From Octopus sinensis (Eukaryota): a stretch of 64,000 nucleotides of DNA. Made by a program: the position numbers and the translations under genes. The stretch spans positions 27,280,001 to 27,344,000 of the forward strand of contig NC_043007.1 of the NCBI RefSeq assembly GCF_006345805.1, read 5' to 3'. Positions 1,990 through 57,893 of this stretch are shown here, piece after piece (the stretch's first letter is position 1; each line of letters opens with the position of its first letter). Below the pieces are notes generated by a model that saw nothing but the letters and a program-made list of their open reading frames with translations, ran no database searches and was not told the DNA's origin.

Positions 1990-2825
1990 TGGTAAAGAGG
2001 AATCTCTGAAATTACCACAAGCTCTTCTCTCGGGTGACTCCCTAGTGTCATCCAACCACACTCGAGTCATTGATGATAACAATCTAAGCTGGAGTTCCCA
2101 CGTAAACAGGCAGGTTTGACTTGACCCCCAAAATGTGCCCCTGGATTCTGAGAACTTTCTGGCCTAGAGATGCCTATAACGTCATCTTTCTCTACTCTAA
2201 TTTTACTCGACCCCACCTTGAATACAGTTGCCCACTGTGTTTCGCCGCCTCATGCGAAGCAACTCCTCATGAAAGTAAAAGCACCCCAGAGGTCAATAAC
2301 AAGATAGATAGACGGCATGAAAGGTATTGATTATTTGGGTCGACTAAAGAAAAAAACTCAATCTCTACTCTCTCCAACACCGCCGGAGGAGCTACATCAT
2401 TTGTGTTATGTGGAAAATATTCTATCAATATTGTACGAATGGTGTTGGCATCACTTTTAAAATCCATCCAAGACTTGGCCACGGTGCTATCCGCCCACTA
2501 CAAAAACCGAACTCGGTACACATAGCAACATTTCCTCACAATTACTTTACCTCAACCGGTCTAGCTCTCTTTAATACCATACCAAAATACCTCAAAACGG
2601 ACACGGAAACGTATCCCATAAAATTCAAATGTTCACAGGACAAATTTCTTCAAAAAATCCCGGACCAACCTGCTACAACCGGATACATCTCCATCTATAG
2701 TAACTCTTTGCTAGAGAGGGCTACACTGACTCATATATGATTAAAAGACTTCACCAGGTGGTGCTATTAAGTTAGACATGGCCGGGCCTATACTAGCAGA
2801 AACCTATCAAAGTTATGAAAGTTAT
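1990..2825 (+). mobile_element. 5'-truncated, frameshifted LINE (CR1/L2/Crack group) RT C-terminus plus 3' UTR
   Basis: Translated pieces NNLSWSSHVN, RPHLEYSCPL, LYSL..RR, MWKIF and KFKCSQDKFLQKIPDQP resemble C-terminal motifs of CR1-group ORF2. Short repeated tail AAAGTTAT. Confidence 0.8.
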
Positions 2826-13689: not shown

Positions 13690-14329
13690 GCAGGTTTTGC
13701 CACCGCCACAGCAGCCGGAACCTCGAAACGCTTTAGGTATTTTTGCAGAAAGTGTATGGAAAGGAGTGTATGAACCGCACACACGTGTACGAGCGGTTCA
13801 GACGTTTCCAAGATGGCTGAAAACATGTCGATATTGACGAACGAGCTCTAAGGGGAAATCGTCGAATCACCATCTGAGCTATGAGAGGATGTGCAGTTTA
13901 GTTACGGTTCAGTTCAGTCCATGATCAATGAATATTTGGATAGGAGACGCGTGTCTGCCAAATTTGTGCCAAAACAGCTTTCAGCTGACCAAATAGACAC
14001 TCGGCTTTCAGTGGAAGAATATCTCCATGACTGTGTCGAGAACGTAGAAAAATTTTTGAAAGCTTTGCGTAGGTATCTCCAAGCTTTTGACAAAGTTATA
14101 GGCAGATTCTCAGCTCAAATTTCTCGGTCAAGGTTAATGCGACGTTCATACGCTACACACCTTGCTTTCAAGCACTGCTGTAAACAGTGAATGTGAACTA
14201 GAACTTTAAACCTTTGTGAGCATGCTCCCAACAGAGTTCAAAGTCAATCTCTGCCGAGCGGCTTTACAATGCGTGCTTTAGCTTCGTTACTATGGCAACA
14301 GTCCGGATAGTTATAGATCAGAATACGTA
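13690..14329 (+). mobile_element. Internally deleted mariner transposon remnant (HTH region)
   Basis: ORF 13891-14190 contains SYGSVQSMINEYLDRRRVSAKFVPKQLS (WVPxxL-type motif). End GTCCGGATAGTTATAGATCAGAATACGTA resembles a mariner TIR. Confidence 0.8.
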
Positions 14330-30182: not shown

Positions 30183-30219
<37 letters not shown>

Positions 30220-30356
30220 TGAGGGCATTATACATACATGCCAGGAGGCATGTATATACATGCCAAACGCTAAGAGGGACAATCAGTCATTTCTACCAAA
30301 AATATTACTAATCCCACCGAAAGCAATTTTTCAAAGTAAGACATTAAAAATATAGA

Positions 30357-30398
30357 CCTGTATCACAGTGATTTCATACTTACGTAATCATCAGCAGG
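30357..30398 (-). ncRNA. Minimal type I hammerhead ribozyme, unit 1
   Basis: Minus strand: CCUG-CUGAUGA-U-UAC-GUAA-GUA-U-GAAA-UCAC-U-GUGA-UA^CAGG. Complete core, stem I, stem II with GNRA loop, near-palindromic stem III, AUA cleavage triplet. Confidence 0.85.
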
Positions 30399-30827
30399 CT
30401 GAATGTTTATAAATAAACAACGACCCTGCCTCGCTTAAGCCGATCAGCTAAAGATCAACATCAACGAAGCACATGGGTGAGTTATATATATATTACATCC
30501 GGGTAAATGGTTAACTTTTACGAATTGCATTTCGGGAGAGGAAAAGTTTTTCGGATAAAAATTTAGCAATAAGGACAACTACTTAATAAGGAAAAACTTA
30601 ACAGAAATTGTCAGGTAGATAGCGTAAAAACCTCATAAGAGAAAAATTTCGAAAATAATTATTTCTTATTGAACATATTAATTTATATATAGAGGGCATT
30701 AACATACATGCCAGGAGGCATTGTATATACATGCCAAACGCTAAGAGGGACATCAGTCAATTTTTACCAAAAATATTACTAATCCCACCGAATGCAATTT
30801 TTCAAAGTAAGACATTAAAAATATAGA

Positions 30828-30869
30828 CCTGTATCACAGTGATTTCATACTTACGTAATCATCAGCAGG
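30828..30869 (-). ncRNA. Minimal type I hammerhead ribozyme, unit 2
   Basis: Identical 42-nt motif to unit 1. Confidence 0.85.
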
Positions 30870-31300
30870 CCTGATGTATTAAAATAAACAACGACCTGCC
30901 TCGCTTAAGCCGATCAGCTAACTGATCAACATCAACGAAGCACATGGGTGAGTTTATATATATTACATCCGGGTAATGGTAAACTTTTACGAATTGCATT
31001 TCGGGAGAGGAAAAGTTTTTTCGGAATAAAAATTTAGCAATTAAGGACAACTACTTAATAAGGAAAAACTTAACAAGAAATTGTCAGGTAGATAGCGTAA
31101 AAACCTCATAAGAGAAAAAAATTTCGAAAATAATTATTTCTTATTGAACATATTAATTTATATATAGAGGGCATTATACATATGCCAGGAGGCATTGTAT
31201 ATACATGCCAAACGCTAGAGGGACAATCAGTCATTTCTACCAAAAATATTACGAATCCCACCGAATGCAATTTTTCAAAGTAAACATTTAAAAATATAGA

Positions 31301-31342
31301 CCTGTATCACAGTGATTTCATACTTACGTAATCATCAGCAGG
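31301..31342 (-). ncRNA. Minimal type I hammerhead ribozyme, unit 3
   Basis: Identical 42-nt motif. Stem I extends ACCUG/CAGGU. Confidence 0.85.
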
Positions 31343-32399
31343 TGAATGTATATATAAATAAACACGACCTGCCTCGCTTAAGCCAGATCAGCAACTGATC
31401 AACATCAACGAGCACATGGGTGAGTTTATATAATTACATCGGGTAAATGGTAAACTTTTACGAATTGCATTTCGGGAGAGGAAAAGTTTTTTCGAATAAA
31501 AATTTAGCAATTAAGGACAACACTTAATAAGAAAAACTTATCCAAGAAATTGTCAGGTAGATAGCGTAAAAACCTCATATATTATATCTATATAAATATA
31601 TATATATATATATATACATATATACATTTATATATACATTTATATACATATAAATATATAGTGAGTGTATGTGTGTGTTTCTGTGTTATGCACACACACG
31701 AACACACATATATATATACATCTACACACAAGTATATGTGTATATAGATGGGGGTGTATATATATATATATGTATATATATATATTATATATATATACAT
31801 ATTATATATATATAATTATATTATATATAATATGCATATTATATTATATAGATATAATCATCACACACACACATATATTTATATATATATATATATATTT
31901 AGCTGTCAGTATCTATGGAGTTCTGTTGATTCAGTTCGTGATAAGCATGTCACGGTTCAAAATTACCGTACCGTGTAATCCCGGATCAGTGCCGAATTAC
32001 ACACCGATAAGCGAGCATGCATGTATATATATACAGATGTGTGTAATGGCGCATTCTTAATATATATGTCAGTTTATCGATTTATGACTCGTATTATAGG
32101 AAAGTTTTCCACAAAGAAATAAGAGAAACACCTCCAGCCTGAGGCAATATATGAAGGGATGTTGACACAGCATTCTTCAGGTTTCTCTTACAATCAGTAT
32201 GTTAAGGGACTTATTCCAATTAAAATTTTCTCCTGATATCAACCTTATTTTTATGTTTGTGTATAAATAAACACAATCACCAGACACGCATAGATTCTGC
32301 CTAGGTATATATATATATATGTATGTGTGTGTGGTGTATGTGTGTGTGTGTATTTATAGAGATAGATAGATAATTACATAGATAAACACACAGAAAATA

Positions 32400-50210: not shown

Positions 50211-50302
<92 letters not shown>

Positions 50303-50339
50303 ATGTATGTATGTATGTATGTATATGTAATGGATATAT

Positions 50340-50652
50340 AAAAAGCCCGCCATTTACCGGATATATGATATATAAACTTCTCCATGTGCTTCGTTAGAAA
50401 GAGAAGTTGGCTGTTCGACTTCGACAGTGCTGGTAGTTTATTATGATGTGTTCAGAATCAGTTCTACCGATGAGCATGGACGCAAATTTTTATGCGGTGA
50501 GTGCGAAATCACAGGTGATATAGGACTAAATTCATTTTTAAATGTCTTGCTTTGAAAAACTGCATTGGGTATGATTAGTGAAATTTTGGTTTAAAGAAGA
50601 AACGATTATGTCCCTCTTAGTGTGAGGCATTTATGTGTAATAATGCCCTCTA
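50340..50652 (+). mobile_element. Divergent solo relative of the 472-bp HHR tandem unit, in opposite orientation
   Basis: Shares CCATTTACC, TATAAACT..CCATGTGCTTCGTT, AATGTCTT.CTTTGAAAAA.TGCATT, GTCCCTCTTAG and TAATGCCCTCTATATA with the reverse complement of the unit. Flanked by (TA)n. Confidence 0.8.
50462..50525 (+). ncRNA. Type I hammerhead ribozyme motif (U4C variant)
   Basis: UUCUA-CCGAUGA-GCAU..CGCA-AAUUUUUA-UGCG..GUGC-GAAA-UCAC-AG-GUGA-UA^UAGGA. Confidence 0.7.
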
Positions 50653-51491
50653 TATAATATAATATATATATTGTATGAATATACGTGTATATGTATATAA
50701 ATATGTATATAATATATTATATATAATAATATATTATATTATGAGTGTGTGTACACATATACATACATCTATACGTATTCATTTATATAGAATTATATAT
50801 ATACATATGTGCATGTATGTATGTACGTGTGTATATACGTACATGTGTATCTGTGTGAATATATGTTATCCAGCAGAATAACGTATTAGCCGTCACATCG
50901 ATGTAAAATCGATTATGGAAGTTGGATAACAACTATCTACCATGTATCCATTCGAAATAACAGAGGGACGTATTTCACCGGTTTCGATTGCTGCTGAAAT
51001 GCTCTTCAGCATGCTAGATTATGTACATGACTATCTTGAACGACATAAAGAAATTGCAACATTTTCAATAATCTTATCTCTTGAAGACAATTGAAAAGCC
51101 TTGACTCTTCAAGACTATTGAAAAGGTTGCAAGACGCATCGAAAATTTTAGGAAAATAAAAATAAGAAATAAGTGGAAATTTCACCGGTGAGTGTGTTAC
51201 CTTATAAGGCACAAAAGGAAATGACTCTCCCCAGACACAACAGAATATGCTTCAACACACGAACTCATATTAAGAACCGTGCAAACCAAATCCCAAAAAC
51301 GAAATGTATATATATATATATATATATACTGCGTCATGTGATACACTATACGTAGCAAGTCTGTTGTCAACGCTGAATATCATTTGTAATTCTTGCATAT
51401 ATTATGGTTTGCTAAAAATTTCAATTTTTTTTTTTAATAAAACAACTTTGTACATCAATAATTCAATAATTTTTGTTGGCTGCAATGTATT

Positions 51492-51591
51492 NNNNNNNNN
51501 NNNNNNNNNNNNNNNNNNNNNNNNNNNNNNNNNNNNNNNNNNNNNNNNNNNNNNNNNNNNNNNNNNNNNNNNNNNNNNNNNNNNNNNNNNN
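51492..51591. other. Assembly gap (100 N)
   Basis: Seen directly. Confidence 1.
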
Positions 51592-57751: not shown

Positions 57752-57795
57752 CCACTACAAATGTTTCATGTCTGCTACCGACAATCTTCAGGTGG
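57752..57795 (-). ncRNA. Minimal type I hammerhead ribozyme (left arm)
   Basis: Exact reverse complement of 57850-57893. Confidence 0.8.
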
Positions 57796-57849
57796 ATTTT
57801 CGATCTTCAAATCAGTATCAAAATTTGATACTGATTAGAAGATCGAAAT

Positions 57850-57893
57850 CCACCTGAAGATTGTCGGTAGCAGACATGAAACATTTGTAGTGG
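57850..57893 (+). ncRNA. Minimal type I hammerhead ribozyme (right arm)
   Basis: CCAC-CUGAAGA-U-UGUC-GGUAGCA-GACA-U-GAAA-CAUUUG-UA^GUGG. Intact core and GUA triplet. Confidence 0.8.

What the first reader, a model, noticed from the sequence alone, without database searches (positions are those of the whole stretch)
50340..50652. Divergent solo relative of the tandem unit shows covariation of the hammerhead helices
Seen: an inverted, diverged homolog of the 472-bp unit has an HHR at the same relative position with different helix sequences that still pair. Stem I is UUCUA/UAGGA versus CCUG/CAGG. Stem II is GCAU/GUGC with an inserted CGCA/UGCG hairpin versus UAC/GUA. Stem III is UCAC-AG-GUGA versus UCAC-U-GUGA, with the same AUA triplet. 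Inference: compensatory change means the fold was under selection across subfamilies, which is the best internal evidence that the motif is or was functional. This copy has U4C in the core.
Basis: partly seen in the sequence, partly recalled or inferred. Interest (0 to 1): 0.75.

Follow-up and report, generated by a model that had tools for sequence, protein, structure and literature searches.

The report
Retrozyme lineage crossed a variant core
This is a truncated copy of a protein-free jumping repeat with thousands of relatives, whose predicted self-cutting RNA fold is kept by paired mutations between subfamilies, and whose family tree indicates that the lineage likely passed through this copy's altered (probably weaker) core letter and changed back before a large expansion; the kind of element is known.

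Summary
Observation confirmed, with corrections. 50340-50662 (+) is homologous to the array unit at 30213-31579 (-) and carries a type I hammerhead fold at 50460-50527. It is no lone relic: it is a 5'-truncated member of subfamily B3 of a ~480-bp non-coding family (4,970 exact flank-motif hits) with Penelope-type insertion ends. On a tree built from flanks only (85 copies), 12 double changes fall on internal branches in stems I and II, all keeping the pair (null 1.9, none of 10,000 simulations reached 12). Ten core positions never change there. Stem III does not covary; the extra stem II hairpin is ancestral, not inserted; the array has a U-U mismatch at 10.1-11.1. U4C is not private: 24 of 74 B-type matches carry it, and it recurs in two other lineages. 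C4 copies are not one clade (AU p 0.002-0.005): they sit between U4 lineages on a ladder B2-B3-B4-X-E-A that ends in the window's own array subfamily, implying at least one reversion. Cleavage and circular RNA are untested. The kind is known (non-LTR retrozyme), and this scan reported similar elements and inherited U4C on other DNA; I found the reversion ladder in neither.

The parts
50340..50662 (+). 5'-truncated copy (about 0.7 unit) of subfamily B3 of the ~480-bp repeat; 3' end at the family's first fixed end, 12 nt after the GCCCTC box
50460..50527 (+). type I hammerhead fold; no private change against the majority of the 10 closest B3 copies
50460..50466 (+). stem I, 5' strand (pairs with 50521-50527; U-G wobble at pair 4; predicted 4-bp extension 50455-58 with 50530-33)
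50467..50473 (+). core C3-A9 with U4C at 50468, shared by subfamily B3
50474..50504 (+). stem II (G10.1-C11.1 intact), purine-rich internal loop and inner hairpin 50481-84/50493-96
50505..50520 (+). GAAA, near-palindromic stem III with 2-nt loop, U16.1 and A17; predicted cleavage between 50520 and 50521
50588..50605 (+). private scrambled patch outside the ribozyme (decay after insertion or assembly error)
50211..50326 (.). (TA)n tract upstream; with the TA-rich tract 50663-50742 the likely target site
30213..31579 (-). 2.9-unit array of subfamily A with hammerhead folds at 30337-30418, 30808-30883, 31286-31363 (U4, U-U at 10.1-11.1, GUAA loop)

Best explanation
The stretch is a 5'-truncated copy of subfamily B3 of a ~480-bp non-coding repeat family whose hammerhead helices I and II covary between subfamilies, and it was likely inserted by the enzymes of a Penelope-like retrotransposon. 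Shown: homology, copy numbers, two fixed 3' ends at (TA)n, scattered 5' ends, inverted partial copies, covariation, core constraint, lineage-fixed U4C, non-monophyly of the C4 copies. Inferred: a borrowed reverse transcriptase/GIY-YIG protein nicks (TA)n DNA and starts copying at one of two internal sites 3' of the ribozyme, reading through the cleavage site, so its template is an uncut precursor or a re-ligated circle. Self-cleavage was selected in the source lineages but modest activity would suffice, so U4C sources stayed mobile; a later C-to-U change (at a CpG) restored U4 in the line that led through B4, X and E to the large subfamily A, or, under the other rootings, in the line that led to C. 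This particular copy is a passive insertion.
For: Family size: 2,972 exact hammerhead-pattern hits, 0 in control; 4,970 flank-motif hits, 0 in control. Unfitted MAFFT alignment of 20 lineage representatives: 93.5% of 370 cells paired, 11 of 20 pairs with two-sided change, slid controls 23-42%; RNAalifold predicts the three-helix fold with a covariation term of -3.15. Flank-only tree, 85 copies: 12 internal double changes, all pairing, null 1.9 +/- 1.3, 0 of 10,000 reach 12; non-partner columns 0.22 co-changes per pair against 1.2; the other parsimony resolution gives 13 (12 pairing), null 2.4. On the 75-copy tree 25 of 30 internal stem changes keep pairing against 25 of 50 at tips (Fisher p 0.004). 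Ten core columns have 0 internal changes against about 11 expected; N7 takes all four bases; position 17 is A, C or U. A-U to G-C at pair 2.1-1.1 arose twice; pair 2.4-1.4 runs U-A (B2), U-G (B3, this copy), C-G (B4). U4C: 24 of 74 B-type matches (counted by eye), 10 of the 100 listed K matches, 7 of 39 in a separate family. C4 monophyly rejected: AU p 0.0018, 0.0046. Ends: 143 of 170 3' ends in two windows, 131 of 170 followed by (TA)n-like DNA; 7 of 182 5' ends near the cleavage site against 4.9 expected. Precedents: hammerhead mutants do not block insertion by the anole Penelope protein in vitro (PMC11167929); U4C lowers activity in vitro yet suffices for a viroid in vivo (PMC3088659).
Against: No cleavage or circular RNA shown. 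Rfam gives no hammerhead hit and single-sequence folding does not give stem III. No autonomous partner found: the one GIY-YIG family tested shows the unit at only 2 of 30 loci. Root unresolved: three rootings not rejected (AU p 0.185, 0.117, 0.451); several flank columns link the outgroups to B3/B4/E/A rather than to B1/B2. The downstream flank alone does not reject C4 monophyly (p 0.36; upstream alone 0.021). Support inside B3 is low. The parser required a near-intact core: 43 of 211 segments were dropped, 5 of them with a damaged hammerhead and the rest truncated, inverted or spurious (read by eye), and some loci were found with core patterns, so core constraint is partly built in. 6 of 33 internal stem changes break a pair on the 85-copy tree.
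Confidence: 0.78

Rival explanations
1. The fold is kept as a binding or folding signal for the helper protein and cleavage no longer matters, so U4C and the U-U mismatch are neutral drift.
For: U4C fixed in three lineages; U-U at 10.1-11.1 in the large subfamilies A and C; no excess of 5' ends at the cleavage site; hammerhead mutants still insert in vitro (PMC11167929); 8 of 9 Xenopus dimers did not cleave (10.64898/2026.07.22.740005).
Against: The only core change fixed on internal branches is the one reported as tolerated in vivo; the other ten positions never change while N7 is free and position 17 avoids G; U4 returns after U4C; U1.7 is kept in 68 of 75 copies and the last loop-II base is A in 66 of 75.
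Confidence: 0.12
2. U4C arose once in a dead-end B3 branch and the apparent passage and reversion result from recombination or template switching between subfamilies, or from tree error. This rival concerns only the reversion; covariation would stand.
For: Downstream flank alone does not reject C4 monophyly and the root is unresolved; low support within B3; conflicting outgroup characters.
Against: B3-GG shares flank characters with B4, E and A both upstream (columns 42, 178, 210) and downstream (329) and loop-II letters with B4, while sharing both stem I strands and C4 with B3-AG, so a mosaic needs several crossovers; the U-G pair of B3 is the expected intermediate between B2 and B4; X was found afterwards and fell into the predicted gap.
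Confidence: 0.2
3. The copies are terminal-repeat remnants of an autonomous Penelope-like element rather than a separate non-autonomous unit.
For: Same architecture as described for such elements (PMC8557442); Xenopus retrozymes resemble terminal repeats.
Against: Units join head to tail with no coding sequence, up to 14 units; long frames in the first 60 loci belong to neighbouring elements; the tested GIY-YIG family has a different 3' end.
Confidence: 0.07
4. The pairing is chance in AT-rich decayed repeat DNA.
For: No Rfam hit; folding z-scores 0 to -2.
Confidence: 0.01

Closest known systems
Metazoan non-LTR retrozymes (Cervera and de la Pena 2020, PMC7229834, parts 2-3 of 6 read; Li, Clavereau and Pollet 2026, 10.64898/2026.07.22.740005, parts 1 and 3 of 5 read)
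   Same: Non-coding, low-GC tandem units with one type I hammerhead each, monomers to multimers, thousands of copies; a U-U mismatch at the base of helix II as in axolotl HHR_Amex2.
   Different: Unit 474-487 bp, above the 150-450 bp quoted; branched stem II in most lineages; 5-bp stem III; lineage-fixed U4C; this locus is a partial monomer; RNA circles not shown here.
Penelope-like elements with hammerheads in their terminal repeats (PMC4209133 and PMC8557442, passages; PMC11167929, parts 1-2 of 4)
   Same: 5' truncation, adjacent inverted partial copies, microsatellite targets, two fixed 3' ends downstream of the hammerhead, copying across the uncut site.
   Different: No open frame; the two 3' ends are about 120 nt apart rather than 30-40; full three-helix hammerhead rather than the minimal form; no homologous autonomous partner found.
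Dolichopoda pDo500 satellite hammerhead (Martinsen et al. 2010, PMC2837043, abstract and Results read)
   Same: About 500-bp repeat, conserved core, free position 7, compensatory stem changes taken as evidence of selection.
   Different: Here the family is dispersed, covariation is counted on a tree, and a core variant is fixed and reverted along the lineage.
U4C viroid hammerhead variant (Ambros and Flores 1998; seen only as cited in PMC3088659)
   Same: Same substitution in an otherwise complete core.
   Different: Here it marks genomic retroelement subfamilies of tens of copies; activity unmeasured.

Membership tests
Type I hammerhead ribozyme | Three helices around the core in type I order | tested here: met
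   stems I and II covary, stem III invariant
Type I hammerhead ribozyme | Canonical core C3 U4 G5 A6 N7 G8 A9 | tested here: not met
   this copy has C4; filed as a U4C core variant, not as a canonical hammerhead; most of the family has U4
Type I hammerhead ribozyme | G12 A13 A14 A15.1, U16.1, H17 and R10.1-Y11.1 | tested here: met
   GAAA 50505-08, UA 50519-20, G10.1-C11.1
Type I hammerhead ribozyme | Stem I / loop II tertiary contact | tested here: inconclusive
   U1.7 in 68 of 75, last loop-II A in 66 of 75, matching the contact described in PMC11875169; but U1.7 can pair with A2.7 here
Type I hammerhead ribozyme | Site-specific self-cleavage | not testable with these tools
   only contigs were available
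Non-LTR retrozyme | Short non-coding tandem units, one type I hammerhead each | tested here: met
   family level:
Non-LTR retrozyme | [quoted passage not shown] | tested here: not met
   not met by this locus nor by 0 of 43 long-stem C4 copies; met by subfamilies A and C
Non-LTR retrozyme | Expression as linear and circular RNA | tested here: inconclusive
   no holder on record as RNA; contigs cannot show ends or circles
Penelope-like element (autonomous) | Reverse transcriptase plus GIY-YIG frame | tested here: not met
Penelope-dependent non-autonomous element | 5' truncation, inverted partial copy, microsatellite target, fixed internal 3' ends | tested here: met
   this locus has no inverted arm
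Penelope-dependent non-autonomous element | Homology to the terminal repeat of an autonomous partner | tested here: inconclusive
   one GIY-YIG family tested, no shared end; other families not tested

The most novel reading that the evidence does not exclude
The genome preserves a step-by-step fossil record of a natural ribozyme crossing a catalytic valley and being tuned to weak cleavage: source elements stayed mobile with U4C, reverted to U4, then gave up the 10.1-11.1 pair in the two largest expansions, so intermediate rather than maximal self-cleavage is what retrozyme spread selects; the natural series B2-B3-B4-X-E-A makes this directly measurable.
Probability: 0.3. Interest if true: 0.72.

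Novelty: new member of a known kind. Interest (0 to 1): 0.48.

Why it matters
Why Penelope-type elements and animal retrozymes keep hammerheads is open: mutants still insert in vitro, yet the motif persists. This family gives tree-aware evidence that the fold and ten core bases stay under selection while one reportedly weakening core change is tolerated and reversed. Six natural, ordered variants allow cleavage rate to be set against copy number and array length. It also shows that CUGANGA-based searches miss whole mobile subfamilies. The element type itself is not new.

Tried and rejected
Rfam scans gave only microsatellite-driven miRNA hits and no hammerhead. Sequencing runs: no RNA holder listed; contigs of guessed-RNA runs were laid on the copy and on the array and are used neither for nor against expression. 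A footprint of cleaved templates at 5' ends was sought and not found (7 of 182 against 4.9). The idea that C4 lineages cannot form arrays is only suggestive: 0 of 43 against 6 of 43 long-stem U4 copies have a tandem neighbour (Fisher p 0.026 by copy, about three arrays, confounded with age). The idea that U4C always goes with G10.1-C11.1 fails for about 6 of 89 matches with U-U, and fully canonical lineages exist (B4, X). Two C4 copies in X (2 of 78) look sporadic. The search for an autonomous partner with one GIY-YIG protein failed; Pfam gave one weak GIY-YIG hit among 5 proteins. A first 124-copy midpoint-rooted tree put B3 at the base and was replaced because flanks were untrimmed. Ambros and Flores 1998 is not held. 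Rejected: private U4C, inserted hairpin, stem III covariation, a functional link between the two window loci.

Full report
Observation. The stretch 50330-50660 (+) aligns collinearly with the reverse strand of the 2.9-unit array at 30213-31579 (score 197; 500 shuffles 33.6 +/- 5.3, maximum 55). Rfam does not recognise the motif. RNAfold gives stems I and II but pairs the core in place of stem III. A model built from the family finds four motifs in the window, this one and three in the array (two of them are in the model by construction). Between the two window loci alone there are three double changes that keep a pair, two wobble shifts and one broken pair (U-U at 10.1-11.1 in the array). Stem III is identical.

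What it is. The window lies in a 2.72-Gb animal genome, probably an octopus (my guess; earlier scan notes on the same genome say so). The copy has relatives at 88-95% identity on many contigs, and the array unit has many at 95-97%. A hammerhead pattern has 2,972 exact matches and a flank-only pattern 4,970, both with 0 in the reversed control. Natural units are 474-487 bp, non-coding and 65-97% identical between subfamilies. Of 170 distinct 3' ends, 76 lie 8-21 nt and 67 lie 130-143 nt after a GCCCTC box, and 131 run into (TA)n-like DNA; 182 5' ends are scattered (segments under 85% identity to five reference units were left out). Inverted partial copies often adjoin the 5' end. This is the architecture described for Penelope-like elements (PMC8557442), and fixed internal start sites were shown biochemically for one of them (PMC11167929). 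The window copy is a 5'-truncated monomer ending at the first fixed end, with no private change in the hammerhead against its 10 closest relatives and a scrambled patch at 50588-50605.

Covariation. A profile of the downstream flank gave 211 distinct segments; 168 parsed as hammerheads and 43 did not (5 damaged, the rest truncated, inverted or spurious by eye). In an unfitted alignment of 20 hand-picked lineage representatives, 93.5% of 370 cells pair and 11 of 20 pairs show two-sided change, all in stems I, II and the inner hairpin; slid controls give 23-42%. RNAalifold predicts the three-way fold mainly from covariation. Because relatedness inflates such counts, I built trees from flanks only (75 of 138 eligible copies; 85 after adding 10 X copies) and mapped the hammerhead on them. 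Internal branches carry 12 double changes, all pairing, against 1.9 +/- 1.3 expected; none of 10,000 simulations reached 12, and non-partner columns co-change 0.22 times per pair against 1.2. Three of them fall on two branches of only 0.013-0.015 flank substitutions per site. On the 75-copy tree, internal stem changes keep pairing in 25 of 30 cases and tip changes in 25 of 50; on the 85-copy tree the internal figure is 27 of 33. Ten core columns and stem III have no internal change (about 11 and 9 expected), while position 7 takes all four bases. Part of the core constraint is built in by the parser and by pattern-based sampling, but lineages found through flanks alone also carry the core.

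U4C. It is inherited: 24 of 74 B-type matches, 22 of them with the same stem I 3' strand as this copy; one copy with that strand has U4 (by eye). Genome-wide there are 89 C4 matches with 4 in control, about 27 of them B3. C4 also marks a K sublineage (10 of 100 listed) and 7 of 39 matches of a separate family with different flanks. On the flank tree the lineages form a ladder: I, B1/B2 (with C), B3, B4, X, E, A, with bootstrap 92-100 for the nesting of B4, X, E and A inside B3. Forcing the C4 copies into one clade is rejected (AU p 0.0018 and 0.0046), by the upstream flank alone (0.021) but not by the downstream flank alone (0.36). The root is unresolved, but each of the three rootings tested needs at least one C4-to-U4 reversion in a source lineage that later founded a large subfamily (A, C or both). 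The U-G pair of this copy at stem I position 4 is the intermediate between U-A in B2 and C-G in B4. X, found last (78 matches), carries stem I and stem II states between B4 and E. The inner hairpin is ancestral and was lost in E and A.

Mechanism. Inferred, not shown: a borrowed Penelope-type protein nicks (TA)n, starts at one of two internal sites and copies across the cleavage site, so templates are uncut precursors or circles; 5' ends show no excess at the site. Selection keeps cleavage possible in source lineages but tolerates weak forms. This fits two published results: hammerhead mutants still insert in vitro (PMC11167929), and U4C is poor in vitro yet sufficient for a viroid (PMC3088659; the original paper was not held). 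The two largest expansions have U4 but a weak 10.1-11.1 pair, as in axolotl HHR_Amex2, which cleaves mainly as a dimer (PMC7229834); the near-palindromic stem III would allow dimers (PMC4209133). No partner was identified: an abundant GIY-YIG family also ends at (TA)n but has its own 3' end.

Comparison and novelty. It works like a non-LTR retrozyme mobilised by Penelope enzymes. At family level it meets the structural criteria; this locus does not meet the two-unit criterion and its core is a variant. Compensatory change in such motifs is already reported (PMC4209133, PMC2837043). Searches for octopus plus hammerhead and for retrozyme plus reversion or compensatory subfamilies found no paper on this family or on a reversion ladder. 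I read no supplements; the species tables of the 2026 preprint are closed and name four invertebrates I could not see. Earlier notes of this scan report octopus retrozymes with Penelope footprints, two fixed start points in this genome, and subfamily-wide U4C in another genome; none of the 16 listed mentions a reversion. Papers were seen as follows: parts of the text for PMC7229834, PMC11167929, the 2026 preprint and PMC2837043; passages only for PMC8557442, PMC3088659, PMC4209133, PMC11875169 and PMC3907566. Hammerhead numbering and the CpG-decay explanation of C-to-U are recalled knowledge.

Verdict. Real feature, interpretation supported for stems I and II, new member of a known kind. Interest 0.48, carried by the ordered natural series and the probable passage through U4C.

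Noticed in passing
L263-L292, 3' of the GIY-YIG frame (e.g. L055:2760-2815): A very abundant Penelope-like family (18,183 first-look candidates) has a hammerhead-like motif in its 3' untranslated part that reads as the U3-A8 compensated core with a 2-bp stem II and a palindromic stem III, and ends at (TA)n. Read by eye, not tested.
   Followed up: no
L103, L108, L110, L117: A 553-bp tandem family with a hammerhead whose stem III is a short palindrome and whose stem II closes on U-U; about 46% identity to the family studied, so unrelated or very distant.
   Followed up: partly
L191, L196, L200, L201, L211-L215, L220, L251-L262: An old separate hammerhead family with different flanks and a similar stem III; 7 of 39 matches have U4C.
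   Followed up: partly
L298, L306, L307: An X sublineage with a further double change in stem I (pair 6, G-C to A-U) and C at position 7; not included in the tree counts.
   Followed up: partly
window 50441-50553, runs X1, X4, X9: Contigs of guessed-RNA runs from three studies bridge the predicted cleavage site; in X1 and X4 they differ by one letter and one gap and carry the loop letter of loci L002-L004 rather than of this copy. RNA status is a guess.
   Followed up: partly
window 57768-57877: A near-perfect 110-nt hairpin, matching MIR5185 below its gathering score; probably a small inverted-repeat element.
   Followed up: no
window 51492-51591: A 100-base assembly gap 830 bases downstream of the copy.
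   Followed up: no
window 2348-2740 and 13885-14190: Frames that by eye resemble the end of a CR1-type reverse transcriptase and a mariner fragment; Pfam gave no hit.
   Followed up: partly
L009:1-944 (-) and L047:1-618 (-): Fragments that by eye resemble other Penelope-like frames beside family copies, probably separate insertions in the same (TA)n tracts; no Pfam hit.
   Followed up: partly
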